Shown here piece by piece: positions 29-37,006 of a stretch of 38,274 nt of DNA. The DNA is from Chiloscyllium plagiosum. Its lineage: Eukaryota. The stretch lies in the NCBI RefSeq assembly GCF_004010195.1, contig NC_057718.1, forward strand, positions 991,389-1,029,662. Reading direction: 5' to 3'. The translations under genes were made by a program, and so were the position numbers. Within the stretch, counting starts at the first letter, position 1. Every line of letters starts with the position of its first letter. The notes beneath the pieces are model-generated. The model had not been told where the DNA came from and did no database searches. It worked only from the letters and a program-made list of their open reading frames with translations.

Positions 29-116
29 CTGATGAAGGGCTTTTGCCCAAAACGTCGATTTTGAAGCTCCTTGGATGCTGCCTGAACTGCTGTGCTCTTC
101 CAGCACCACTAATCCA
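29..116 (+). mobile_element. Penelope-like element terminal fragment with mutated hammerhead (G12 to A)
   Basis: CTGATGA-AGGGC-TTTT-GCCC-AAAA-CGTC followed by ggatgctgcctgaactgctgtgctcttccagca, homologous to the repeats at 3543, 4598 and 18200. Confidence 0.75.
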
Positions 117-945
117 GATATCAAACAATGATGATTCAGAATACAGAAAAGAGATAGAGGGCTTGATGCTATGGTGCAGTGATAACAACCTCACTCAACA
201 ATGGCAAAACAAAAAAACTGATAATTGATTTCAGAAATAAAGGAGGAGAACACATCTTTGTCTACATTAATGGAGCGGAAGTTGAGAGCGTCAAGTTTCT
301 AGGCGTGATGATAATCGACAAACTGTCCTGGACTTCCCATGTCGATGTGATGGTCAAGAAGGCACAAAAATGTCTCTTCCTGAGGTGGCTTAAGAAATCT
401 GCATGTCCTTGAGGACTCTCACCAACTTTTACAGATGCACCATAGAAAGCATAATATCTGGCTGCTTAACAGCCTGACATGGCAACCGCTCTGTCCAGGA
501 CCGTAAGAAACTACAAAAGGTAGTGTGCGCAGCCCAGGCCATCACAGAAGCCAACCTTCCATTCATGGACTCCGTTTACTTGGCTCACTACTGCGGAAAG
601 GCTGCCAAAGAGATGAAAGTGAGGACTGCAGATCATCAAAGACCCATCTCACCCCGGTAATGCCTCTTCCATCAGGCAATATATACAGAAGTCTGAACAC
701 ATGCACTTGCAGGTTCAAGAACAGCTTCTTCCCTGCCTTTGTTAGACTGATGAATGGATTTCCTAATTTAAAATAACGTTGATCTTGCTTTACGCACCTC
801 CTATGCAGTGTAACCTGTATGCCTACTCTGTCAAAGCAGCCTGTGATCTGTATGTCCTTGCTTACTATGATATGCTTGTACTGCTCACAAACAAAGCTAT
901 TTACCATACTCAGAAACGCATGACTACAACAAATCAATTCCAATC
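117..945 (+). mobile_element. Rex1/Babar-type LINE, decayed 3' fragment
   Basis: Frameshifted RT C-terminus ISNNDDSEYRKEIEGL..WCSDNNL, KTKKLIIDFR, VKFLGV..LSWTSH, LTNFYRCTIESI, LPSG..YRSL..RFKNSFFP. Confidence 0.8.
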
Positions 946-2673: not shown

Positions 2674-3083
2674 ACAGTGAGGTTAAAATCAGATTAGCCA
2701 TGTTCTTACTGAATGGTGGAGCAGTCTTTAAGGGCTGAGTGACCCATTCTTGTTCCTTATTCATTTGTATGTTTGTATCCTAGCTCCTGTGCTCTAATCC
2801 TTTCACTGTGAATACTGACATTCCATTTAGTTTCTTCAATGCCTGCTTCACCTGCATGCTTGCTTTCATTGACTGGTGTATAAGGAAACCTGGATCTCAT
2901 TGCACCAGTCCTATTCAAGTCTATTTCTATTCAGATAATAATCTGTCGTCTTGTTTTTGCTATCAAAGTGAATAACCTCACATTTATTCACATTATACCA
3001 TATCCTCCATTTGTCGTGGACTCTGATAAAGATTGATCATGACCATGATGGAATTGATATTGTTGTGTCCTGTGACTACCTGC

Positions 3084-4172
3084 ATGCAGGCAAGGATGCC
3101 CTGAGGCATGGTAAATTGGTGAAACCGAGCAAAGGCTATGGCAACGGATGAATGGGCACTGCACAACAATCAACAAACAGTAGTGTTCCCTCCCAGTTGG
3201 AGAACACTTCAGCGGTCCAGGACATTCGAACTCGGAACTGCGGACCGTCCTCCAAGGCGGACTTCGGGACAGGCAGCAGTGAAAAGTGGCCGAGCAGAGA
3301 CTGATAGCTAAGTTGGGACCTTGGGTTCATGTCACACTACAGGTGACCACCATTGCACTATACACACACACACACACAAAGGCACCCTCTCACAGACTTA
3401 GACACTTTACACTCATACACACACATACACTCTCTCTCACAGACACTCTCAACCCCCCCCACACACACACACTCACACCCCTACATGTACACATACCCAT
3501 ATATCTTTGTGGGGTGAATTTGTACTTGCAGAGTTACATTGTTGAAAATGTGTTGCTGGAACAGCGCAGCAGGTCAGGCAGCATCCAGGGAACAGGAGAA
3601 TTGACGTTTCGGGCATAAGCCCTTCTTCAGGCTTATGCCCGAAACGTCGATTCTCCTGTTCCCTGCATGCTGCCTGACCTGCTGCGCTGTTCCAGCAACA
3701 CATTTTCAGCTCTGATCTCCAGCATCTGCAGACCTCACTTTCTCCTCAGAGTTACATTGTACTTTGCTCAAAAATTGCATGAATCCACGTAAGACTCTGT
3801 TAACTCACATTTTAGATTAGAATCAGTCTAAACATTATGACACAGGGGGCTAACACCTCAACATCTTATCTGTGCTGACACTAATTGTGACAGTTAACCT
3901 GAGAATGTAACTTTTTAAAACCATTTTGTGATTTACATATGAAAGAAGTGAAATTATCATGGTCATTCTAATAGATGAGAGACTTAACAAACAATCAAGG
4001 TCTTTTTCAATGTATAATTTCAGTTACATCACACTGTAAACTTTTGCTATGAATTCTGTGTCTTACAATTGTGCCCTCCACAACCACTTGATGAAGGAGC
4101 GGCACCCCAAAAGCCAGTGCTTCCAATTAAATCTGTTGGACTATAACCTGGTGTTGTGTGATTTGTAACTTT
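3084..4172 (+). mobile_element. Penelope-like element 3' fragment (family B) with GIY-YIG remnant, interrupted by 3543-3746
   Basis: CRQGCPEAW*IGETEQRLWQRMNGH..PVGEHF translation, (CA)n-rich 3' region, decayed hammerhead near 4088-4119, and terminal gttggactataacctggtgttgtgtgatttgtaacttt. Confidence 0.8.
3543..3746. mobile_element. Fold-back PLE-derived mini-element (family A) with hammerhead core and 14-bp TSD
   Basis: Inverted arms of about 80 bp plus a tail of about 38 bp. CAGAGTTACATTGT is duplicated at 3529-3542 and 3747-3760. Minus-strand CUGAAGA..GAAACGUC at 3603-3630. Confidence 0.85.
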
Positions 4173-4298
4173 GCATGGGAGAAATTTAACTAGATGGAAT
4201 TTGGTCATTTGTCATGCAGTAATTTAATGTTCCTGTGTAATATGTTGTGTGAAGCATTCCAAAATATAAAGCAATTAATCCATTTTTGCGTTTTGTAG

Positions 4299-4468
4299 GT
4301 GTGCTGGAACACTTGAAGACACTGGAAAAATGTGCCAAGAAGCTGGCGTCAGAACAATTAGAAGCACAGCACAAAGCGCAGGTTCTAGAGCAGGAAAAAA
4401 CATTGTTGGAAAGACTGAGATCAAAAAGGGATGCACTGAGGACCAGAGTGACTGCACAGTCTGCTGGA
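4299..4468 (+). CDS. CENPO: Centromere protein O, internal coding exon (phase 1 to 0)
   Basis: Acceptor ttttgtag|GT, donor GGA|gtaagt. Encodes GVLEHLKTLEK...LERLRSKRDALR, resembling the vertebrate CENP-O N-terminal GVLAHLERLE...LRRLRDELR coiled coil (recalled human sequence). Confidence 0.92.
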
Positions 4469-4597
4469 GTAAGTGAAGGTGCTTAGCAGCTTTAGCTACA
4501 ATATGATACTCTTGAGTCCAAGTTGGAGCCCTGTTTTCCAATCCACATGGCTCAAATTGTGAGCTTTTCACAATTGTGGACTCCCTTTCCAGCTTAA

Positions 4598-4797
4598 AAT
4601 GTGTTGCTGGAAAAGCGCAGCAGGTCAGGCAGCATTCAAGGAACAGGAGAATCGACGTTTCGGGCATAAGCCCTTCTTCAGGCTTATGCCAGAAACGTCG
4701 ATTCTCCTGTTCCTTAGATGCTGCCTGACCTGCTGCGCTTTTCCAGCAACACATTTTCAGCTCAGATCTCCAGCATCTGCAGTCCTCACTTTCTTCT
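4598..4797. mobile_element. Fold-back PLE-derived mini-element (family A) with hammerhead core and 13-bp TSD
   Basis: Same structure and junction as 3543-3746. CTTTCCAGCTTAA at 4585-4597 and 4798-4810. Minus-strand core at 4654-4681. Confidence 0.85.
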
Positions 4798-5139
4798 CTT
4801 TCCAGCTTAACCTCCTTGTTTTTATTTTCTATGCCTCAGGTAATAAAAACAATTATCCACTCTGCCTCAGGTAATTAAAGCAAGTATTCACATGGCTTTT
4901 TAACCACCATATTCACACTTGCCCTGCTACCTTCAGCGATCTGTTGGTATGCAGACCAAGGTTCCTGTGCTCTTCAATGCTTTCTAAGATTCCACCATTC
5001 ACAGTGTAATCCTTTCCCTTGTTAGTCCTCCCCAAGCGCATTACTTTCACATTTTTGCAGGTTGAATTCTATTTGCCGTGCTCTTCCTAGTCAACAGGTC
5101 TGTTGGTATCTTCAACAGTTTATAGCTATCCTCGTCACT

Positions 5140-5460
5140 ATGGAAAACATTTTATTAACCGGCACCTATAGGACGAGGAGTGTGCTAGTCGATCAAATAT
5201 TCCCATTGATCAAGAGGTCTACATAATTAATGTGAAAACACGCACTAAGGAATAGAAATGTCATGCAAGGGGTTTTTATATGTTATTTACAGTGTAAATC
5301 AGTGAAATAATAATGCACTTTTCCTTAAATAAAACTTACCAACAGAGAGCTGCCTTACTTGTGCTCTCAACTGACTATTACGGAGATCGTGACAGTACAG
5401 TAAACTTGTGGTATTTAAGGTATATAATTTTTGCTGATTAATCAAGAGTGCCCGTTAAAA
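5140..5460. mobile_element. Possible decayed Tigger/Tc1-mariner-like MITE, split by a PLE
   Basis: Left end ...ttattaaccggcac and right end gtgcccgttaaa form a degenerate inverted pair; the right end appears to resume at about 6097-6120. Confidence 0.3.
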
Positions 5461-5462
5461 TC

Positions 5463-6093
5463 AAAGTTAAAAATCACACAACACCAGGTTATAGTCCAAC
5501 AGGTTTAATTGGAAGCACACTAGCTTTCGGAGCGACACTCCTTCATCAGGTGATAGTGGAGGGCTCGATCGTAACACAGAATTTATAGCAAAAATTTAGA
5601 GTGTGATGTAACTGAAATTATACATTGAAGAATTGATTGTCTGTTAAGCCTTTCATCTGTTAGAATACAGTGATAGTTTCACTTCTTTCATGTGTAAATC
5701 ACAAAACCCTTTTTTTAAAANNNNNNNNNNNNNNNNNNNNNNNNNNNNNNNNNNNNNNNNNNNNNNNNNNNNNNNNNNNNNNNNNNNNNNNNNNNNNNNN
5801 NNNNNNNNNNNNNNNNNNNNNNNNNNNNNNNNNNNNNNGTGTGGTGAGTGCAGAGTGTCTTAAGTCTGTGAGGGGGTGCATGTGTGGGAGTGTGTGTGTC
5901 TATAAGGGTGTGTGTGGGTGTCTGTGTGCGCGTCTGTGTGTACCTGTGTCCGTGTGTATGTGAGAATGTGTGTTTGTAGGAATATCTGTGTGTAGTGCAA
6001 TGGTGATCACCTGTAATGTGACATAAACCCAAGGTCCCGGTTGAGGACCTCCCTATGGGTACACCCCACTCCAACACCGGCATCTCCGAATCA
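5463..6093 (-). mobile_element. Penelope-like element (family B), inverted terminal segment plus plus-strand tail; contains N gap
   Basis: Reverse complement of the 3330-4172 repeat, with a hammerhead at 5518-5552 (-). Imperfect flanking duplication tgcccgttaaa / tgtccgttaaa. Confidence 0.8.
5518..5552 (-). ncRNA. Minimal type I hammerhead ribozyme motif (family B)
   Basis: CAC-CUGAUGA-A-GGAG-UGUCG-CUCC-GAAA-GC-UA-GUG: intact core, palindromic AGCU stem III, 3-bp stem I. Confidence 0.7.
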
Positions 6094-17221: not shown

Positions 17222-18199
17222 CAAAGGGAGCGGTGAGTCACTGATTTGAGCTTTTAAATTTGAAGTCAGAGAGCAGAGATTTCTGGAAAAGGAGGGACTT
17301 CTTATTTTTATTTCCATCCAGCGAAATAAGTCAGTGTTTTCTCAACCAGAGATCCTACCTTCGTAGGGCCTCCCACCCAACAACCTCCGCTAACCTTAAA
17401 GACCAGAGACATATCAGGTAAGCGTCTCTTCTTTTTTACTTTGTGATAAGGGGACTAGCAGGGATGGCAGTGCAGGGACAGCTATGTTCCTCCTGTATGA
17501 TGTTTGAGGTGAAGGATGCCATTAGTGTCCCATCCAAGTACATCTGCAGGAAGTGCGCCCAACTCTCGCTCCTCCAAGACCGTGTTAGGGAACTGGATGA
17601 ACTTCGGATCATTCAGGAGGCAGAGGCTGTGATAGATAAGAGTTACAGGGAAGTAGTTACTCCTAGGCACGAAGTAAGCTGGGTAACTGTTCGAAGGGGG
17701 AAAAAACAGTCAGTGGAGGGATCCCCTGTGGTCGTTCCCCTGAAAAACATGTATGTCGTTTTGGATACTGTTGAGGGGGACGACTTACAGGGGTATGCAG
17801 TGGGGCCCAGGTCTCTGGCACAGAGCCTGTCCCTGTTGCACAGAAGGGAAGGAGGGAAAGGAGGAGAGTGTTAGTCATTGGGGACTCAATAGGTAGAGGC
17901 TCAGATAGAAGGTTTGTTGGGAACGAACGAGACTCGTGGTTGGTGTGTTGCCTCCCAGGTGCCAGGGTCCGTGATGTCTCTGATCGTATCTTTGGGGTCC
18001 TGAATGGAGAGGTGACCAGCCTCAAGTTGTTGTCCATGTGGGTACCAACGACATAGGTAGAAAGAGGGATAGGGATGTAAGGCAGGATTTCAGGGAACTA
18101 GGGTGGAAGCTGAGAGCTAAAACAAACAGAGTTGTTATCTCTGGTTTGTTACCCGTGCCACGTGATAGCGAGGCAAGGAATAGGGGGAGATTTCAGCTG

Positions 18200-18775
18200 T
18201 TGAAACTTTATTGCTGGAACAGCACAGCAGGTCAGGCAGCATCCAGGGAACAGGAGATTCGACGTTTCGGGCACAGGCCCTTCTTCAGGNNNNNNNNNNN
18301 NNNNNNNNNNNNNNNNNNNNNNNNNNNGCGGATGATGCGCTGTACATGGAGATTGGTGGGGTGGTAGGTGAGGACCAGTGGGGTTCTGTCCTGGTGGCGG
18401 TTGGAGGGGCGGGGCTCAAGGGCGGAGGAGCGGGAAGTGGAGGAGCAACAAATCCGCAGCCTCCAGCAACGGACCTCCCTCCGGATCCTCCACTCCACGC
18501 TTGCAGCCTTGCGCCGGTACCTACATTCCCTGCAACTCGACCTACCCCAGCTCAGGACAACTCTCTCACAGACCTGTAAAGGACCTCTACTGTTCTTCAT
18601 TTACAGAAGAATCCATAGACTGAACAAACAGTTCTTTCTAGCAGATTCCTGAAGAAGGGCCTGTGCCCGAAACGTCGAATCTCCTGTTCCCTGGATGCTG
18701 CCTGACCTGCTGTGCTGTTCCAACAATAAAGTTTCAACTTTGATCTCCAGCATCTGCAGACCTCACTTTCTCCTC
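18200..18775. mobile_element. PLE family A insertion with inverted terminal arms inside CR1 ORF1; 13-bp TSD
   Basis: GAGATTTCAGCTG at 18187-18199 and 18776-18788. Internal PLE ORF piece RTPLVLTYHPTNLHVQRII (-). Hammerhead cores at 18261-18288 (-) and 18643-18682 (+). Contains a 38-nt gap. Confidence 0.85.
18643..18682 (+). ncRNA. Minimal type I hammerhead ribozyme, apparently intact
   Basis: AGAUUC-CUGAAGA-A-GGGC-CUGU-GCCC-GAAA-CG-UC-GAAUCU: perfect 6-bp stem I, 4-bp stem II, palindromic ACGU, GUC triplet (predicted cut after 18676). Confidence 0.85.
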
Positions 18776-21700
18776 GAGATTTCAGCTGAACATGTGGCTG
18801 AAAGAAAAGTGCAGGAGGGAGGGTTTCAGGTTCTTGGATAATTGGGGCTCATTCTGGGGAAGGTGGGACTTGTACAAACAGGACGGGTCTTCACTTGAAC
18901 CAGAGGGATACTAATGTCCTGGGTGGGAAATTTGCTGGTGCTATTCGGGTGGGTTTAAACTAGCTCAGCAGGGGGATGGGATCCAGAGGTGTAGTTACAG
19001 TGCACAGGAGGATGAGAGTAGGAAGGACAGGGACAGGATTTCAGGGTCACAGGAATATGCTGGCAGACAGCGAAGTGGTTTGAAGTGTGTCTACTTCAAC
19101 GCCAGAAATATCCAAAATAAGGTAGGGGAGCTTGGAGCCTGGATAGGTACCTGGGACTTTGATGTAGCCATTTCGGAGACATGGATAGAGCAGGATGAGG
19201 AATTGTCGTTGCAGGTTCCAGGGTTTAGCTCTTTCATTAAGAACAGGCAAGGTGGTAAAAGAGGGGGAGGTGTGGCCTTGTTAGTCAAGGATAGTATAAC
19301 AGTGGCTGAGAGAACTTTCGATGAGGACTGAGGTAGTGTGGGCTGAGGTTAGAAACAGGAGAGGAGAGGTCACACTGCTTGGAGTTTTTCATGGGCCTCC
19401 GCAGAGTTCCAGGGAGGTGAAAGAGAGGATTAGCAACATTATTCTGGGTAGGAGTGAAAGGAACAGGGTGGTCATTATGGGGGACTTTAATTTCCCCAAC
19501 ATTGACTGGAAATGTTATTACTCTAGTACGTCAGATGGATCAGTTTTTGTCCAATGTGTACAGGAGTATTTTCTGACACAGTATGTCAAAGGGCTGACAA
19601 GAGGGGAGACCACACTGGATCTGGTGCTTGGTAATGAACCAGGACAGGTGTTTGATTTAGTTGTAGATGAGCTCTTTGGAGAGAGTGACCATAATTCAGT
19701 TACGTTTAGTTTAGCGATGGAAAGGGATAGGTACATGCCACAGGTCAAGACTTATCGATGGGGCAAGGACAATTATAACGCGATTAGGCAAGAATTAGAA
19801 TGCATAGAATGGGGTAGCAAAATGCATGTCCTTGATTGGTATGTCCCTGTCAGGCAGGGAGGAAGTGATAAGATAAGGGAACCGTGGTTTACAACAGAAA
19901 TTACATCTCTTGTTAAGAAGAAGAAGGAGGCTTATATGTTGATGAGGCAATATGGTTCAGAAGAGGCGATGGAGAGTTACAGATCAACTCGGAAGGATTT
20001 AAAGAGAGAGTTAAGAAGAGCAAAGAGAGGAAATGAACAGTCTTTAGCAAATAGAATAAAGGAGAACCCAAAAGCTTTCTATAGGTATGTGAGGAATAAA
20101 AGGATGATTAGGGTAGGAATAGGGCCAGTCAAAGACAGAAGTGGGAAATTGTGTGTGGATCCTGTGGAGATCGGAGAGGTGCTAAAGGAACATTTCTCAT
20201 TGGTTTTCACTCAGGAAAAGGAGAATATTGTAGAGGAGAATAATGAGGTACGAGATATTAGACTAGAAAGGATCGAGGTTAGTTACGAACAGATGTTACC
20301 AATTCTAGAAGGAGTGAAAGTAGACAAGCCCCCTGGGCCAGATGGGATTTATCTGAGGATTATCTGGGAAGCTAGGGAGAAGGTAGCAGAGCCTTTGGCT
20401 TTGATATTTGAGTCGTCATTGTCTACAGGTTTAATGCTCGAGGACTGGAGGATTGCAAATGTTGTGCCCTTGTTCAAGAAGGGCAATAGAGATGACCCAG
20501 GTAATTATAGACCAGTGAGCCTTACTTCTGTTATAGGAAACGTTCTGGAAAGGATTATAAGAGAGAAGATTTATAATCATCTAGCAAGCAACATTTTGAT
20601 TTCAGATAGTCAACATGGTTTCGTCAAGGGTAGGTCGTGTCTCACAAACCTCATTGAGTTTTTTGAGAAAGTGACCAAGCATGTAGATGAGGATAGGGCA
20701 GTTGACGTGGTATACATGGACTTCAGTAAAGCCTTTGACAAGGTTCCACATGGTAGGCTGTTGGAGAAAATGCAGAGGTGTGGAATTGAGGGTGATTTAG
20801 CAGTTTGGGTTAGAAACTGTCTTTCTGAAAGAAGGCAACGAGTGGTGGTTGATGGAAAATATTTAGCCTGGAGTCCGGTTACTAGTGGTGTGCCATAAGG
20901 ATCCGTTTTGGAACCACTGCTGTTTGTCATTTTTATAAATGACTTAGCGACGCAGGCATAGGTGGATGGATTAGTAAATTTGCAGACAACACTAAAGTCA
21001 GTGGAGTAGTGAACAGTTTTGAAGAATGTTACAGGTTGCGGGGGACTTGGATAAACTGCAGAATTGGGCTGAGAGGTGGCAAAAGGAGTTCAATGAAGCT
21101 AAATGTGAGGTAATGCACTTTGGGAAGAATAACAGGAAGGCAGAGTACTGGGACAATGGAAAGATTCTTGGTAATGTGGATGTGCAGAGGGATCTTGGAG
21201 TCCATGTACATTGATCCCTAAAAGTTGCCACTCAGGTGGATAGTGCTGTTAAGGAGGCATATGGTGTTATAGATTTCGTTCGTAGAGGGATTGAGTTTCG
21301 GAGCTGCAATATCATGCTGCAACTATACAAAACGCTGGTGCGGCCACACTTGGAATATTGTGTACAATTCTGGTCGCCATATTTCGGGAAGGATGTGGAA
21401 GTATTGTAAAAGGTGCAGAGGAGACTTAGTAGGATGTTGCCTGGTCTGGAGGGAAGGTCTTATGAGGAAAGGCTGAGAGACTTGGGTCTGTTCTCATTGG
21501 AAAGAAGGCGGCTAAGAGGGGATTTGATAGAGACATACAAGATGATCAGAGGATTAGATAGGGTAGACAGTGAAAGTCTTCTTCCTAGGATGATGACGTC
21601 AGCTTGTACGAGGGGACATAGCTACAAATTGAGGGGGTGATAGATTTAAGACAGATGTCAGAGGCAGGTTCTTTACTCAGAGAGTGGTAAGGGCATGGAA

Positions 21701-22935: not shown

Positions 22936-23459
22936 TGACCCAGGTGAAAATCCTAGAAATTCCGCCCAAATGGAATTGAGTGCCCCTACACCAAATGAAC
23001 TGTAGTGTTTTAAAAATGTGGCTCACGATGACTTTTTCAAGGGTAACTAGAGATGGGCAATAAATGCTGACCTGACCTGTGATAGTAACATCCCATGAAT
23101 TCTTAAAAAAAAATCAACAGGTGGAAGTATTAGCATTAATCTCCTCATATTATGTGTTAGTCTTACTGAGTGAGTGGGGGAGGGGTTTGAATGAGGATGG
23201 AAGAGAGTCGTATTGGGCAAAGCAGCTGGTAAAAATGCGAACAGTTTTTGTCCTTTTATTTGAGGAAAGATAAACTGGCATGGGATGCATTCCAGAGGTT
23301 CACTAGGCTGATCCAGGTATGGAGAGTACTGTCTTGTGAGAAGTTGGTTGGGCCTGTATGCATTGGAATTTAGAAGAATAAGGTATGATCCCATTGAAAT
23401 ATAACAAATTCTCTGGGGACTTGACAGGGTAGACATGAAGAGGTTGTTTCCCCTTGTAG

Positions 23460-23590
23460 GAGAAAGTGAGGTCTGCAGATGCTGGAGATCAAAGTTGAAA
23501 CTTTATTGCTGGAACAGCACAGCAGGTCAGGCAGCATCCAGGGAACAGGAGATTCGATGTTTCGGGCACAGGCCCTTCTTCAGGAATGAC
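23460..23590 (-). mobile_element. Single-arm PLE family A insertion (131 bp) starting at the hammerhead; 15-bp TSD
   Basis: TGTTTCCCCTTGTAG at 23445-23459 and 23591-23605, within an old LINE 3' end. Minus strand AUUC-CUGAAGA-AGGGCCUGUGCCC-GAAACAUC-GAAU. Confidence 0.85.
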
Positions 23591-25079: not shown

Positions 25080-26442
25080 GGCATTGTTGTCGAAGAGAAT
25101 ACTGAGGCACAAATAAGTAGAATGGATGGCTTTGAGGTATGTAGAGAAGAGGTGTTGGAAATTCTGGAAAGGGTGAAAATAGATAAGTCCCCTGGGCCTG
25201 ATGGCATTTATCCTAGGATTCTCTGGGAAGCAAGGGAGGAGATTGCAGAGCCATTGGCCTTGATTTTTATGTCCTCTTTGTCTACAGGAGTAGTGCCAGA
25301 AGACTGGAGGATAGCAAATGTGGTTCCCTTGTTCAAAAAGGGGAGTAGGGATAGCCCTAGTAACTATAGGCCAGTGAGTCTCACTTCTGTTGTGGGCAAA
25401 GTCTTAGAGAGAATTGTAAGGGATAGGATTTATGCACATCTAGATAGGAATAATGTGATCAAGGATAGTCAGCATGGTTTTGTGAAGGGCAAGTCGTGCC
25501 TCACAAACCTTATTGAATTCTTTGAAAAGGTGACGAAGGAGGTTGATGAGGGGAAAGCGGTAGATGTGGTATATATGGATTTTAGTAAGGCGTTTGATAA
25601 GGTTCCCCATGGTAGGCTACTGCAGAAAATACGGAGATATGGCATTGAGGGTGAGTTGGAGGTTTGGATTAGGAATTGGCAGGATGGAAGAAGACAGAGG
25701 GTAGTACTTGATGGCAAAGTTTCTTCATGGAGTGCCGTCACTAGCGGTGTTCCGCAAGGATCTGTTTTGGGACCATTGCTGTTTGTCATTTTTATAAATG
25801 ACCTGGAAGAGGGATTAGAAGGTTGGGTGAGCAAGTTTGCGGATGACACAAAAGTCGGAGGAGTTGTTGACAGTGAGGAAGCATGTGGCAGGTTACAGCA
25901 GGATATAGAGAAGCTGCAGAGCTGGGCAGAAAGGTGGCAGATGGAATACAATGTAGCTAAGTGCGAGGTGATTCACTTTGGGAAGAATAACAAAAAGATG
26001 GGGTACTGGGCTAATGGTCGGATACTTGGTAGTGTGGATGAGCAGAGGGATCTTGGTGTCCATGTACACAGATCTCTGAAAGTTGCCACCCAGGTAAATA
26101 GTGCGGTGAGGAAGGCATATGGCGTACTGACTTTTATTGGTAGAGGAATTGAGTTCCGGAGCCCTGAGGTCATGATGCAGTTGTATAAGACTCTGGTACG
26201 ACCGCATCTGGAATATTGTGTGCAGTTTTGGTCGCCATACTATAGGAAGGAGGTGGAGGCACTGGAACGGGTTAACAGTGGTGGACTCTCCCTCTTTATG
26301 GGCATTTAAGAGGGCATTGGATAGGTATATGGAGGATAGTGGGTTAGTGTAGTTTAGGTGGGCTTGGATCGGCGCAACATCGAGGGCCCAAGGGCCTGTA
26401 CTGCGCTGTATTCTTCTATGTTCTATGTTCTATGTTCTATGT
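25080..26442 (+). mobile_element. Young 5'-truncated CR1 with uninterrupted RT domain and a 3' internal deletion
   Basis: 395-aa ORF 25122-26309 with PGPDG, NYRPVSL, DFSKAFD, GVPQGSVLGP and FADD; (TTCTATG)4 tail; short aatta flanks. Confidence 0.93.
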
Positions 26443-30915: not shown

Positions 30916-32599
30916 AATTAAGTACAGTAGTAGGAAGTTGTGAGTGGAATCCAAAGAGATAGGAGAGGTGCTAAATGAATATTTTTCATCAGTAATTACA
31001 CAGGAAAAAGACAATGTTGTCAAGGAGAATACTGAGATACAGGCTACTAGACTAAATGGGATTGAAGTTCATAAGGAGGAGGTGTTAGCAATTCTGGAAA
31101 GTGTGAAAATAGATATGTTCCCTGGGCCGAATGGGATTTATCCTGGGATTCTCTGGGAAGCCAGGGAGGAGATTGCAGAGCCTTTGGCTTTGATCTTTAT
31201 GTCATCATTGTTGACAGGAATAGTGCCAGGAGACTGGAGGATAGTAAATGCTGTTCCCTTGTTCACGAAGGGGAGGAGAGTCAACCCTGGTAATTATAGA
31301 CCAGTGAGCCTTACTTCAGTTGGGGGTAAAGTGTTGGAAAAGGTGATAAGTGATAGGATTTATAATCATCTAGAAAGGAATAAGTTGATTAGGAATAGTC
31401 AACAGAGTTTTGTGAAGAGTAGGTCGTGCCTCTCAAACTTTATTGAGTCCTTTGAGAAGGTGACTAAACAGGTTGATGCGGTATATATGGATTTCAGTAA
31501 GGCATTTGATAAGGTTCCCCATGGTAGGCTATTGCATAAAATATGGAGGCATGGGATTGAGGGTGAATTAGTGGTTTGGATCAGAAATTGGCTAGTTGAA
31601 AGAAGACAGGGTGGTGGTTGATGGGAAATGTTCATCCTGGAGTTCCGTTACTAGTGGAGTACGGCAAGGATCTGTTTTGGGGCCACTGCTGTTTGTCATT
31701 TTTATAAATGACCCAGATGTGGACTTAGAAGGATGGGTTAGTAAATTTGCGGATGACACTACGGTCGGTGGCATTGTGGATAATACTGAACGATGTTGCA
31801 GGTTACAGAGGGACATAGAAAAGCTGCAGAACTGGGCTGAGAGGTGGCAAATGGAGTTTAATGTGGAAAATGTGAAGTGATTCACTTTGGAAGGAGCAAC
31901 AAGAATAGTGTACTGGGCTAATGGTAAGATTCTTGGTAGTGTAGATGAGCAGAGATCTCGATGTCCGTGCACATAGATCCCTGAAAGTTGCCACCCAGGT
32001 TGATAGGGTTGTTAAGAAGGCATACGATGTGCTAGTTTTTATTGGTAGAGGGATTGAGTTTCAGAACTATGAGGTCATGCTGCAGTTGTACAAAACTCTG
32101 GTGCGGCTGCACTTGGAGTATTGTGTACAGTTCTGGTCACCGCATTATAGGAAGGATGTGGAAGCTTTGGAAAGGATTCAGAGGACACTTACTGGGATGT
32201 TGCTTGGTATGGAGGGAAGTTTGTATGAGAAAAGGCTGAGGGACTTGAGGCTGTTTTTGTTGAGAGGTGATTTAATTGAGAGAGGGTTAGATAGGGTGCA
32301 AAGTGAGAGCCTTTTTCCTCGGATGATGATGGCCAGCATGAGGGGACATAGCTTTAAATTGAAGGGTGATAGATATAGGACAGATGTCAGAGGTAGTTTC
32401 TTTACTCAGAGTAGTAAGGGCATGGAAAGGCCTGCCTTCAACAGTAGTAGACTCACCAACTTTAAGGGCATTTTAATGGGTAATGGATAGGCATATGGAT
32501 GAGAATGGAATAGTGTAGGTTAGATAGGCTTCAGATTGGTTCCACAGGTCAGCGCAACATTGAGGGCCTGTACCTCACTGTAATGTTCTATGTTCTAAA

Positions 32600-35135: not shown

Positions 35136-36225
35136 CACTAATTCTGATAGTTCCCATTACACTTTTGTAATCAGAAATTTCTTTGGCCAAAACCATCTCA
35201 GTATCACCAAAAACTCAGATTTGCAGTTACTGCATTTAAACCACCACCACCAACTCTACACTACAGATTTCACTTATAATCTTATGACCTGCTCAAAGTT
35301 TGAATGAACGTTTTGCATAACCCCAAATGTTTTCATTCTTTTGGCCTCTCCACCTATTGCTTATTCCTGCTTATCCCAACTCATCCTAAATCAACACTAA
35401 ACTCTCACCCCAGGCTCCCCTTCATCCACAATACTCAATAATTTTATCTGATTACTTTCTGTCCTTGGATTCCAAAGTGATGATGTCTATTCTCTATCCA
35501 GAGGAGAGAATAACTAGCAACAGAAACAGGTGTGAAATTGTTCAGCACCAGGCTTAATTGTTTAAAAACCTGGCACTCTTTAAACAGCGGGTGTCTTCTA
35601 GGTTCCTGATCANNNNNNNNNNNNNNNNNNNNNNNNNNNNNNNNNNNNNNNNNNNNNNNNNNNNNNNNNNNNNNNNNNNNNNNNNNNNNNNNNNNNNNNN
35701 NNNNNNNNNNNNNNNNNNNNNNNNNNNNNNNNNNNNNNNNNNNNNNNNNNNNNNNNNNNNNNNNNNNNNNNNNNNNNNNNNNNNNNNNNNNNNNNNNNNN
35801 NNNNNNNNNNNNNNNNNNNNNNNNNNNNNNNNNNNNNNNNNNNNNNNNNNNNNNNNNNNNNNNNNNNNNNNNNNNNNNNNNNNNNNNNNNNNNNNNNNNN
35901 NNNNNNNNNNNNNNNNNNNNNNNNNNNNNNNNNNNNNNNNNNNNNNNNNNNNNNNNNNNNNNNNNNNNNNNNNNNNNNNNNNNNNNNNNNNNNNNNNNNN
36001 NNNNNNNNNNNNNNNNNNNNNNNNNNNNNNNNNNNNNNNNNNNNNNNNNNNNNNNNNNNNNNNNNNNNNNNNNNNNNNNNNNNNNNNNNNNNNNNNNNNN
36101 NNNNNNNNNNNNCCTTCAACCCCACTAATCTCTGGATACAGCGTATTATCCTCCATCATTTCCACCACCTACAATCAGACCCCATCAGTTTCCCTCACAC
36201 GTGATCAACAATGCCCTCGTGATAT

Positions 36226-36260
36226 CACCTGATGAAGGAGCGACGCTCCGAAAGCTAGTG
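36226..36260 (+). ncRNA. Minimal hammerhead ribozyme motif (family B)
   Basis: CAC-CUGAUGA-A-GGAGC-GAC-GCUCC-GAAA-GC-UA-GUG. Confidence 0.75.
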
Positions 36261-36501
36261 CTTCCAATTAAACCTGTTAGACTATAACCTGGTGTTGTGT
36301 GATTTTTAACTTTCCACACAGAGAAACTGACACCCAGGGAGACTGATACACACGGAATTCCTTCCCTTCCCCACCCCTATCTGGGTTCCGCAGAGTTGTG
36401 TTGGAGGGTTGGGTCAGTCTCCCTGGGTGTCAGTCTCTCTGTGTGGAAAGTTAAAAATCACACAACACCAGGTTATAGTCTAACAGGTTTAATTGGAAGC
36501 A

Positions 36502-36536
36502 CACTAGCTTTCGGAGCGTCGCTCCTTCATCAGGTG
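36502..36536 (-). ncRNA. Minimal hammerhead ribozyme motif (family B), mirror copy
   Basis: Reverse complement is identical to 36226-36260. Confidence 0.75.
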
Positions 36537-37006
36537 ATATCACGAGGGCATTGTTGATCACGTGTGAGGGAAACTGTGATGAACTTTGACTTAATTTTAC
36601 ATTTTTATTATTATGTATGACTTCTGTCATTGATGTAAGTGTTATGGTGGGGCAATTTATAAAACTTGTCACAGTATTTTTCATGTAAATGTACATGTGA
36701 CAATGAATTTCTATTCTATTTTGTATATCTACAGGAGGTTCAGTGACTTGATATTTTGTCTGTTGAGCAGCTTTTCCTACTCCTCGATTGACAGAAGAAG
36801 CCACAAAAGCATCATGTCCTTGAACAGATCGCCATGGAGCTGAGAGAGAGAACACAAAGACTGAAAGAGATGACTCCACCTCCTCTCAGTAGTTCTCTAA
36901 ACAAAACAAATCTCAGCATTAAACTGGTGAGAGGCTGACAACAGTGTGGAATCTAATCCCACTGTCCCTACCCCTAGCCCATGTTTCCAGCCGCTGCTAA
37001 TACAGA

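What the first reader, a model, noticed from the sequence alone, without database searches (positions are those of the whole stretch)
3529..4810. Two independent ~200-bp fold-back ribozyme mini-elements with the same inversion junction
Seen: 3543-3746 and 4598-4797 are both inverted arm + direct arm + ~38-nt tail, and have no coding capacity. They have different TSDs (14 and 13 bp) but the same junction CCCTTCTTCAGG|CTTATGCC(C/A)GAAACGTC. The junction sits at the 5' edge of the hammerhead core on one arm and in stem II on the other. Known: PLEs carry minimal hammerheads in their terminal repeats and often insert with an inverted 5' segment. Inference: either a non-autonomous, retrozyme/MITE-like hairpin element amplified as a unit by PLE enzymes, or a recurrent template switch directed by the ribozyme's stem II.
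Basis: partly seen in the sequence, partly recalled or inferred. Interest (0 to 1): 0.8.

Follow-up and report, generated by a model that had tools for sequence, protein, structure and literature searches.

The report
Fold-back stubs of Penelope-like retroelements
Two ~200-bp hairpin-shaped insertions flanking an exon are ORF-less, truncated copies of the ribozyme-bearing end of a Penelope-like retrotransposon, each apparently folded back on itself while it was being inserted: a neat minimal case of an architecture already described for these elements.

Summary
e1 (3543-3746) and e2 (4598-4797) are each an inverted arm, an 8-nt loop, a direct arm and a 38-nt tail. They have exact 14- and 13-bp target-site duplications (TSDs) and the same junction. 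Both are real, separate insertions: e2 is missing from a contig of a related organism, and paralogues of e1's host repeat show its empty site. The arms are the 3' module (minimal hammerhead, pLTR, tail) of a very abundant Penelope-like element (PLE) family. A longer copy, e3, carries a PLE ORF fragment, and e4 is a single-arm copy. A complete hammerhead core exists only on the minus strand, without a good helix I, inside a -164 kcal/mol hairpin. Self-cleavage is therefore doubtful. The two sites that separate e1 from e2 are changed in both arms of e2 (2 within-element sites, 0 arm-type sites, 75 columns). The arms were therefore made afresh at each insertion, not inherited from a fixed hairpin master. 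The best reading is PLE two-strand target-primed reverse transcription: the distal start gives arm plus tail, the proximal start gives the tail-less inverted arm, and the cDNAs join by self-priming at the hammerhead. Head-to-head inverted pLTRs, one-sided tails and self-priming are already published, so this is a new member of a known kind. A genome-wide census was not possible.

The parts
3529..3542 (.). e1 target-site duplication, 5' copy (CAGAGTTACATTGT)
   Evidence: Exact 14-nt repeat at 3529 and 3747. The empty site TSD|ACTTTGCTCAAAAA is seen in 51 (X1) and 66 (X9) contigs of the host repeat family (table 7).
3543..3631 (-). e1 inverted arm. On the minus strand it reads CCUGAAGA-A-GGGC-UUAU-GCCC-GAAA-CGUC, then the pLTR body up to the proximal end (no tail).
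   Evidence: It is 77/79 identical to the direct arm.
3622..3629 (.). e1 hairpin loop (CTTCTTCA). It is the part of the hammerhead core box present only in the inverted arm. The junction lies at 3631|3632 with GG/CC microhomology.
3632..3708 (+). e1 direct arm. It starts inside hammerhead stem II (CTTATGCCCGAAACGTC...) and lacks the CUGANGA box.
3709..3746 (+). e1 38-nt tail, present only after the direct arm
   Evidence: Its last 34 nt are 34/34 identical to e3 and e4. 3746 is a common 3' end: 415 loose-end contigs in X1.
3747..3760 (.). e1 TSD, 3' copy
4585..4597 (.). e2 TSD, 5' copy (CTTTCCAGCTTAA)
4598..4682 (-). e2 inverted arm (complete hammerhead core on the minus strand)
   Evidence: It is 72/75 identical to the e2 direct arm.
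4683..4759 (+). e2 direct arm, starting in stem II (CTTATGCCAGAAACGTC...)
4760..4797 (+). e2 38-nt tail
4798..4810 (.). e2 TSD, 3' copy
   Evidence: An organism-B contig (record 31) joins 4580 directly to 4796, so e2 plus one TSD copy is absent there (table 8).
18200..18775 (+). e3, a longer copy of a sister subfamily with 13-bp TSDs (GAGATTTCAGCTG at 18187 and 18776). Inverted arm 18200-18289 ends at ...CAGG. N gap 18290-18327. Inverted PLE ORF fragment 18328-18445. Direct internal part 18446-18647. Hammerhead, arm and tail 18648-18775.
23458..23590 (-). e4, a single-arm copy (hammerhead with helix I, arm and tail, no inverted arm) with 13-bp TSDs at 23445 and 23591
29..109 (+). Older diverged relative of the arm with a canonical CTGATGA box and GAAA mutated to AAAA

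Best explanation
e1 and e2 are two independent, ORF-less, dead-on-arrival insertions made by Penelope-like element (PLE) enzymes. The template was the short 3' module of a very abundant PLE-derived family: minimal hammerhead, about 60 nt of pLTR body, and a 38-nt tail. Shown: they are retrotransposition-type insertions with 13-14-bp TSDs, they derive from a PLE family, and the two arms of each element descend from one template sequence at the time of insertion. Inferred mechanism: the PLE protein cuts both target strands and primes cDNA on both, as shown in vitro for an Anolis PLE. The bottom-strand cDNA starts at the distal RT start site and yields tail plus direct arm. The top-strand cDNA starts at the proximal start site, 38 nt upstream, and yields the tail-less inverted arm. 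The top-strand cDNA runs to ...CTTCTTCAGG-3', just past the hammerhead CUGAAGA box. Its terminal GG then pairs with the CC of stem II (GCCC), on itself or on the sister cDNA. Synthesis continues on that antisense DNA through arm and tail into the target. This gives the same 8-nt loop and junction every time. The hairpin is a by-product of integration and not a functional ribozyme unit.
For: Independent insertions: the flanks differ and the TSDs are exact and different. e2 is absent from a 1224-nt contig of organism B that joins 4580 to 4796 (record 31). e1's empty site is seen in 51 (X1) and 66 (X9) contigs of its host repeat. PLE origin: all minimal-hammerhead features named in PMC4209133 are present in e3. 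These are helix I GAUUC/GAAUC, CUGAAGA, an extra A before G10.1, the G10.1-C11.1 pair, GAAA, and palindromic ACGU with no helix III. The TSD-bounded e3 contains a fragment matching a shark protein at E 2e-10. That protein's relatives carry RVT_1 plus GIY-YIG. The tblastn hit of that shark protein (P0002) to 18444-18331 has E 9e-15. Arms made anew at each insertion: in 75 aligned columns there are 2 sites where both e2 arms differ from both e1 arms and 0 sites shared by arm type. Five private changes occupy 4 columns. One of the two e2 states is also in the old copy at 29-109, so it looks like a source-lineage variant. The rough chance of mirrored identical changes at two sites is about 2e-4. 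Start sites: in 3 of 3 fold-backs (e1, e2, e3) the inverted arm begins within about 6 nt of the arm/tail border, and only the direct arm carries the tail. This matches published work. The tail is the stretch between two RT start sites, and both target strands are cleaved and extended (PMC11167929, whole main text read). The tail occurs on one of the inverted pLTRs, and palindromes at inverted junctions are read as self-priming (PMC3846280, passages). Topology: the extra 10 nt (CCTGAAGAAG) lies only in the inverted arm, so that arm was the longer, first-made strand. The inverted-arm end 3631/4682 is a recurrent end genome-wide. 46 (X1) and 32 (X9) contigs show a strand-switch joint exactly there (table 5).
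Against: Only two elements with a readable junction were available and no genome was held. The frequency of this junction relative to others is therefore unknown. Nothing explains why the top-strand cDNA should stop at CAGG. The single-arm copy e4, and the loose ends of 293 contigs in X1 (consensus AATGAGGA), continue at least 6-8 nt further upstream. A 2-bp microhomology is weak. In vitro, Frangieh et al. saw no difference in start-site use between the strands, whereas my model needs distal on one strand and proximal on the other. Gene conversion between arms could also produce the mirrored sites. The hairpin centres were not confirmed by any spanning read or contig (no listed piece spans).
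Confidence: 0.6

Rival explanations
1. A non-autonomous hairpin element (retrozyme- or SINE-like) is transcribed and retrotransposed as a whole unit by PLE enzymes. The shared junction would then be inherited from a master copy.
For: The junction is identical and the 5' ends nearly so in two insertions only 1 kb apart. The family is extremely abundant: 120,708 contigs were laid in X1. Animal retrozymes are reported as non-autonomous PLE derivatives with dispersed monomers (bioRxiv 10.64898/2026.07.22.740005, abstract and passages). PLE pLTRs can suffice in cis for mobilisation in trans (PMC3846280).
Against: There are 2 within-element mirrored differences and 0 arm-type differences. A faithfully copied hairpin master would need parallel mutations in both arms. 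The 5' ends differ by 2-4 nt. A transcript of the unit folds into an 80-bp perfect hairpin (-164.1 kcal/mol, z -24.4), a poor RT template. The plus strand carries no complete hammerhead, and the minus-strand core has lost helix I. No tandem arrangement is present.
Confidence: 0.2
2. Each insertion first formed a perfect palindrome (both cDNAs reaching CCUGAAG, joined CAGG|CCTG). Each later lost the same 12 nt at the centre by GG-microhomology deletion or centre-break repair of an unstable palindrome.
For: Perfect-palindrome joints at exactly this point exist in 46 (X1) and 32 (X9) contigs (table 5, row 3631/4682, opposite strands). The e1/e2 junction equals that palindrome minus 12 nt flanked by GG.
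Against: It needs the same secondary deletion twice. Intact perfect palindromes evidently persist in two species. No intermediate was seen in the window.
Confidence: 0.1
3. The hairpins are assembly artefacts, meaning a collapse or mis-join at an inverted repeat.
For: PLE inverted structures are known to break assemblies (PMC8557442). The N run in e3 begins immediately after the same CAGG. The other two N runs lie near family-2 hammerhead repeats (about 170 and 117 nt away). No contig laid spans either hairpin.
Against: Two separately assembled loci give the same asymmetric 8-nt loop. That loop has a simple templated explanation. Both outer junctions of e2 with unique flanks are present without differences in organism-A contigs (records 7 and 8). 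These may, however, come from the sample that was assembled.
Confidence: 0.04
4. They are MITEs moved by a DNA transposase.
For: They have long inverted repeats, small size, no ORF and flanking duplications.
Against: The inverted repeat is not terminal on the 3' side, where a 38-nt tail lies outside it. TSD length varies (14, 13, 13, 13 bp in e1-e4). Single-arm copies with TSDs exist (e4). The arms are the 3' module of a retroelement carrying PLE ORF sequence.
Confidence: 0.01

Closest known systems
Canonical EN+ Penelope-like element insertion architecture: direct and inverted pLTRs, a one-sided 30-40-bp tail, TSD (Arkhipova et al. 2013, PMC3846280; Craig et al. 2021, PMC8557442)
   Same: It shares the head-to-head inverted pLTR next to a direct pLTR and a tail of about 31-40 bp on one of the two. 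It also shares a short TSD of variable length, a palindrome at the inverted junction and a hammerhead in the pLTR. The inverted pLTR is offset from the direct one by 10-15 bp at the junction.
   Different: Here nothing lies between the two pLTRs: there is no ORF and the total is 200-204 bp. The junction sits in the hammerhead core and stem II and is identical in two insertions from two source variants. Whether the rotifer palindromes coincide with hammerhead stem II was not checked.
Two-strand cleavage and extension with internal RT initiation at two sites in the Anolis PLE PAc (Frangieh et al. 2024, PMC11167929)
   Same: The tail equals the interval between two RT start sites downstream of the hammerhead. 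cDNA is primed on both target strands. There is no homology between target and start site. Hammerhead cleavage is not needed.
   Different: In vitro both strands used both start sites alike. In the 3 fold-backs here the inverted arm always starts at the proximal site and the direct arm at the distal one. In PAc the module overlaps the ORF start. Here the e1-type ATG in loop II opens only a 27-codon frame (read by eye).
Minimal PLE hammerheads (Cervera & de la Pena 2014, PMC4209133)
   Same: It shares the CUGANGA core, an unpaired nucleotide before G10.1, the G10.1-C11.1 pair and GAAA. It also shares palindromic 15.2-16.2 with no helix III, and a helix I of 4-5 bp (e3, e4).
   Different: In e1 and e2 the complete core survives only on the strand opposite to the tail. 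Its helix I 5' strand is replaced by arm sequence, and it is buried in an 80-bp hairpin.
Animal non-LTR retrozymes (Cervera & de la Pena 2020, PMC7229834, search listing only; Li et al. 2026 preprint)
   Same: They are short, ORF-less, hammerhead-bearing and PLE-related, and are mobilised in trans. Dispersed monomers exist.
   Different: Retrozymes are direct tandem units with a hammerhead per unit and circular RNA intermediates. e1 and e2 are single inverted duplications with one usable core at most.
L1 twin priming (5' inversion). The name and mechanism are recalled, not read here.
   Same: The second target strand primes a second cDNA, giving an inverted 5' segment inside one TSD pair.
   Different: In L1 the inverted and direct segments are adjacent, non-overlapping parts of one RNA. 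Here both arms copy the same 75-79 nt.

Membership tests
PLE-derived insertion product (pLTR-only, non-autonomous) | The sequence belongs to a family whose longer copies carry PLE ORF sequence (RT plus C-terminal GIY-YIG) | tested here: met
   e3 has arms 88-91% identical to e1 and one TSD pair. It contains 18328-18445(-), which matches shark protein P0002 at E 2e-10. Relatives P0003 and P0004 have RVT_1 plus GIY-YIG (P0004 23.2 bits against a cut-off of 22.6). tblastn results are.
PLE-derived insertion product (pLTR-only, non-autonomous) | Own RT/GIY-YIG ORF (autonomy) | tested here: not met
   e1 and e2 are 204 and 200 bp. 0 of 4 crossing frames hit Pfam. They are therefore filed as products or fragments, not as autonomous PLEs.
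PLE-derived insertion product (pLTR-only, non-autonomous) | 30-40-bp tail at one end only | tested here: met
   A 38-nt tail lies after the direct arm only in e1, e2 and e3.
PLE-derived insertion product (pLTR-only, non-autonomous) | Inverted 5' copy adjacent head-to-head, with the whole unit inside one TSD pair | tested here: met
   TSD lengths are 14, 13 and 13 bp.
Minimal PLE hammerhead (min-HHR) | CUGANGA ... GAAA core with stem II closed by G10.1-C11.1 and an unpaired nucleotide after A9 | tested here: met
   My motif scan found 9 cores in the window, including 3630(-) and 4681(-) for e1 and e2. The plus strand of e1 and e2 has none.
Minimal PLE hammerhead (min-HHR) | No helix III, palindromic 15.2-16.2 (dimer mode) | tested here: met
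   GAAA-CGUC (ACGU) is present in e1, e2 and e3. e4 has ACAU, so the palindrome is lost there.
Minimal PLE hammerhead (min-HHR) | Helix I of 4-5 bp flanking the core and cleavage site | tested here: not met
   This holds for e1 and e2: the 5' strand is ...CAUAAGC, and by hand I count 2-3 of 5 pairs with A/GAUUC. Helix I is met in e3 (GAUUC/GAAUC, 5/5) and e4 (4/5). Counted by eye.
Minimal PLE hammerhead (min-HHR) | Match to curated Rfam hammerhead models | tested here: not met
   No hammerhead hit at gathering score for the whole window. None at E<=10 on 3450-4900, 18610-18790 or 1-140. I expect this for motifs without helix III, but that is my inference.
Minimal PLE hammerhead (min-HHR) | Self-cleavage | not testable with these tools
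   It needs an in-vitro assay. Published min-HHRs cleave poorly and as dimers.
Non-LTR retrozyme | Direct tandem repeats of hammerhead-containing units | tested here: not met
   The repeat finder shows only the inverted pair within each element. The two elements are 1051 nt apart with unrelated DNA and an exon between them.
Non-LTR retrozyme | Circular or linear unit-length RNA | not testable with these tools
   No run on record as RNA holds the stretch. Only contigs were laid.
MITE | Terminal inverted repeats at both ends and a TSD of fixed length | tested here: not met
   The 38-nt tail lies outside the repeat on one side. TSDs are 14 and 13 bp.
L1-type twin-priming inversion | Inverted and direct segments are non-overlapping neighbours on the template | tested here: not met
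   The arms duplicate the same 75-79 nt.

The most novel reading that the evidence does not exclude
The ~200-bp fold-backs may be the normal progeny of a self-renewing, non-autonomous PLE parasite. A short hammerhead-to-tail RNA would carry a CC...GG/stem II motif that forces self-priming. Every new copy would then be reborn as an 80-bp hairpin, which explains the mirrored variants. The resulting thousands of intronic perfect hairpins would feed dsRNA or small-RNA pathways in elasmobranch genomes.
Probability: 0.12. Interest if true: 0.7.

Novelty: new member of a known kind. Interest (0 to 1): 0.35.

Why it matters
PLE integration is the least understood retrotransposition mechanism. These two minimal insertions are compact natural footprints of it, with both primed ends, both start sites and the joining point readable within 200 bp. 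They agree with the two-start-site, two-strand model derived in vitro from a lizard element. They add two things. First, the strands appear to use the start sites asymmetrically: proximal on the inverted arm in 3 of 3 cases. Second, the join recurs at the palindromic hammerhead stem II, which gives the otherwise puzzling PLE hammerhead a possible structural role in self-priming. In practice, such 80-bp perfect hairpins are abundant, sit in introns next to exons, differ between related species and coincide with assembly gaps. They matter for assembly quality and perhaps for dsRNA formation in pre-mRNAs.

Tried and rejected
- Earlier-findings look-ups by sequence, place and words returned nothing.
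- Collection scans found nothing usable. The junction 21-mer gave 0 hits in metagenome contigs. A 19-mer from the arm gave 48 loci, and all 48 match only about 18-32 nt around the pattern, so they are chance. The junction pattern gave 0 hits in viral contigs and an arm pattern gave 0 in genome contigs.
- Rfam showed no hammerhead family. Only sub-threshold miRNA-hairpin matches appeared (best MIR2118, 44.1 bits against a gathering score of 85). I read these as generic long-hairpin hits.
- No RNA holder is listed for the stretch. Four of the 24 listed runs were laid (X1, X9, X16, X17), and all are contigs. No listed piece spans either hairpin. One 103-nt contig of X17 (record 18, 3604-3706) crosses the e1 junction with only 28 letters on one side, below the tool's 31-letter rule, so it is not counted.
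- My by-eye idea that the direct internal part of e3 (18446-18647) continues the PLE ORF where the inverted fragment stops was tested and rejected. BLASTP of 18431-18649 against P0004 and P0002 gave E 5.3 and 14. The internal architecture of e3 and the true size of its gap therefore remain open.
- I looked for target/RNA microhomology at the inverted-arm starts by eye. e2 shows 6 of 7 (AGCTTAA against AGCTGAA), e1 and e3 show none, so there is no consistent rule.
- The window's large RT ORFs (19300-20898, 25080-26309, 30944-31621) are LINE-type or plain RVT_1 without GIY-YIG. They are not the source of the elements.
- Literature searches for a prior description of ORF-less fold-back pLTR pairs, or of a hammerhead-positioned junction, found none. 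The library lacks most subscription papers, and I opened no supplementary files.
Full report
**1. What is there**

Reading 3300-5100 and running repeat finder on 3000-5400 confirms the anatomy.
- e1 spans 3543-3746 and e2 spans 4598-4797. They are 94% identical over 203 nt.
- Each is an inverted arm, an 8-nt loop (CTTCTTCA), a direct arm and a 38-nt tail. Arm complementarity is 97% over 79 nt in e1 and 95% over 82 nt in e2.
- The flanking duplications are exact: 14 bp at 3529 and 3747, and 13 bp at 4585 and 4798.
- The junction strings are the same apart from one C/A.
- A 31-nt arm pattern occurs 6 times in the window against 0.00 expected in 100 shuffles.
- As RNA, e1 folds into one long hairpin of -164.1 kcal/mol. 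Shuffles give a mean of -59.2, so z is -24.4.
- None of the four stop-to-stop frames crossing the elements hits Pfam.

**2. They are real, separate insertions**

I laid contigs of 4 of the 24 listed public runs on 3300-5000 at 90% likeness.
- A 1224-nt contig of organism B (record 31) runs 4144-4580 and continues directly at 4796-5000. e2 plus one TSD copy is therefore absent at the orthologous place.
- e1 sits inside another repeat. Word depth is about 10^5 on both sides of it, against about 4-10 in the unique bins 4212-4553.
- 51 contigs of X1 and 66 of X9 read through the TSD straight into ACTTTGCTCAAAAA, the sequence after the second TSD copy. This is the empty site in paralogues.
- Organism-A contigs (records 7 and 8) cover both outer junctions of e2 without differences. 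They may come from the sample that was assembled.

**3. What family**

BLAST of the elements against the window finds further copies.
- e3 (18200-18775) has 13-bp TSDs. It consists of an inverted arm, a 38-N gap, internal sequence, a direct arm and a tail.
- e4 (23458-23590, minus strand) has 13-bp TSDs and a single arm with tail.
- An old relative lies at 29-109.

The minus-strand fragment inside e3 (18328-18459, P0001) matches an uncharacterised shark protein at E 2e-10. Longer relatives of that protein contain RVT_1 followed by GIY-YIG, which is the PLE domain order. tblastn finds more such fragments in the window at 24984-24649, 36115-36427, 3115-3318 and 14378-14277.

The family is enormous: 120,708 contigs laid in X1 and 148,049 in X9. 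Position 3746 is a common 3' end, with 415 loose-end contigs in X1.

**4. The ribozyme claim**

No Rfam hammerhead model matches, either at gathering score or at E<=10 on three sub-regions.

The motif does fit the minimal PLE hammerhead of Cervera & de la Pena 2014 (passages read). e3 reads GAUUC | CUGAAGA | A | GGGC-CUGU-GCCC | GAAA | C-G-U-C | GAAUC. That gives:
- a helix I of 5 bp;
- the extra nucleotide before G10.1;
- the G10.1-C11.1 pair;
- palindromic ACGU with no helix III.

A motif scan of my own finds 9 such cores in the window. In e1 and e2 the complete core lies only on the minus strand, in the inverted arm. The direct arm starts inside stem II and lacks CUGANGA. The helix I partner of the minus-strand core has been replaced by arm sequence (2-3 of 5 pairs by my count). 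Any transcript would bury the core in the long hairpin. Calling these elements ribozyme mini-elements is therefore too strong.

**5. Were the arms inherited or made anew?**

I aligned the four arms with e3, e4 and the old copy. Of the 75 columns where all four arms have a letter:
- 69 are invariant;
- 4 columns carry 5 private changes;
- 2 columns separate e1 from e2, and in both columns both arms of e2 carry the derived letter;
- no column groups the arms by type (inverted against direct).

One of the two e2 states is also present in the old copy, so it looks like a source-lineage variant. A hairpin master copied faithfully would need the same substitution at mirrored sites twice. That is roughly 2e-4 at 4% divergence.

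The inverted arms also begin at slightly different bases: e1 TGAAAATG, e2 AATG, e3 TTGAAAC. Within-element arm identity is 77/79, 72/75 and 90/91, and is at least as high as any between-element value. I conclude that each hairpin was generated at its own insertion. Gene conversion between arms is the remaining alternative.

**6. Mechanism**

Published work supplies most of the pieces.
- PLE insertions often carry an inverted 5'-truncated copy and a 30-40-bp tail at one end (Craig et al. 2021, passages).
- In rotifer PLEs an inverted pLTR abuts the direct pLTR inside one TSD pair. A 31-bp tail sits on one of them, and palindromes at the inverted junction were read as self-priming (Arkhipova et al. 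2013, passages).
- The Anolis PLE protein cleaves and extends both target strands. It starts reverse transcription at two internal RNA sites whose interval is the tail, and it does not need hammerhead cleavage (Frangieh et al. 2024, main text read).

The shark elements map onto this. The tail is 38 nt. All three inverted arms start within about 6 nt of the arm/tail border, the proximal site, and lack the tail. All direct arms run to the distal end. The last 34 nt of the tail are identical in e1, e3 and e4 (34/34), although their arms differ by about 10%. This is consistent with a constrained initiation region.

The extra CCTGAAGAAG is present only in the inverted arm, so that strand was made first and further. 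Its 3' end ...GCCCTTCTTCAGG can pair its terminal GG with the CC of GCCC, leaving an 8-nt loop. Copying then proceeds through CTTATGCCC... and, on the sister cDNA, through the tail into the target. That reproduces the observed sequence exactly and would give the same junction whenever the cDNA ends at CAGG. The template switch itself is inferred, not shown.

**7. How general is the junction?**

The inverted-arm end is a hotspot. A joint between 3631 and 4682 on opposite strands is present in 46 contigs of X1 and 32 of X9 (table 5). This is a perfect palindrome, CAGG|CCTG. Other joints at 3631 carry inserted letters.

In X1, X9, X16 and X17 respectively, 293, 228, 27 and 81 contigs run past 4682 into AATGAGGA... 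This is the reverse complement of the upstream parent sequence, also seen in e4 (GTCATT before CCTGAAG).

In e3 the junction between inverted and direct material lies elsewhere, near 18445/18446. The assembly gap in e3 starts immediately after the same CAGG.

The direct-arm partner therefore varies while the inverted-arm end recurs. I could not count how many copies carry the e1/e2 partner. Why cDNA synthesis should end at CAGG, when the parent sequence continues, is unexplained.

**8. Rivals**
- Unit amplification of a hairpin element is disfavoured by the mirrored sites and unequal 5' ends, but it is not excluded with n = 2.
- A perfect palindrome followed by the same 12-nt centre deletion is possible.
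- An assembly artefact is unlikely, because two loci share one templated asymmetric loop. It remains untested by spanning reads.
- A MITE is excluded by the one-sided tail, the variable TSD length and the retroelement homology.

**9. Verdict**

They are the smallest form of a known PLE architecture rather than a new kind of element. Six literature searches found no description of ORF-less fold-back pLTR pairs or of a junction fixed in the hammerhead. That library is incomplete and no supplements were opened. The asymmetric use of start sites and the hammerhead-positioned self-priming are modest, testable additions to the current PLE model.

Noticed in passing
window 36186-36576, 5549(-), 4085-4175: A second minimal-hammerhead family (CACCTGATGAAGGAGCGACGCTCCGAAAGCTAGTG) has copies at 36229(+), 36533(-) and 5549(-), plus a degenerate copy at about 4088(+). 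[quoted passage not shown] This is the opposite orientation to e1 and e2. Its hammerhead directly follows ORF-like sequence (FPSHVINNAL).
   Followed up: partly
window 5721-5838, 18290-18327, 35613-36112: All three N runs of the window lie at or near PLE hammerhead repeats. The 18290 gap starts exactly after the CAGG that ends the inverted arms of e1 and e2. This suggests that PLE inverted structures cause the assembly gaps.
   Followed up: partly
window 4297-4468 (+): This is a 172-nt exon with AG/GT borders. It is covered end to end by long contigs of two runs guessed to be RNA, from organisms C and D (records 14 and 24, 0-2 differences). e1 lies about 550 nt upstream of it and e2 about 130 nt downstream, so both hairpins are intronic and in the sense orientation of the gene.
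   Followed up: partly
window 3471-4211: e1 is nested in another high-copy repeat (word depth 10^5-10^6). The 3' part of that repeat is the family-2 hammerhead module, so this is a PLE-in-PLE insertion.
   Followed up: partly
window 611-633 (-): An isolated piece of about 23 nt of the family-1 tail (96% identical to e2's tail) sits inside a LINE ORF and is flanked by AAAGA on both sides. It may be an abortive, tail-only insertion.
   Followed up: no
window 3115-3318 (+) and 3356-3500: A decayed GIY-YIG domain fragment of another PLE (E 8e-7 to P0004, with two in-frame stops) is followed by a CA-rich microsatellite just upstream of e1.
   Followed up: no
window 17422-20898: e3 is inserted into a LINE with APE endonuclease and RT domains (Pfam hits in 18915-19331 and 19300-20898).
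   Followed up: no
table 5, joints 3746->4596 and 3746->4765/4767: Contigs (15 in X1, 7 in X9, 2 in X17) join a tail end directly to the start of an inverted arm, which is a tail-to-tail arrangement. Others join a tail end to a partial tail. Several complex arrangements of this module therefore exist genome-wide.
   Followed up: no
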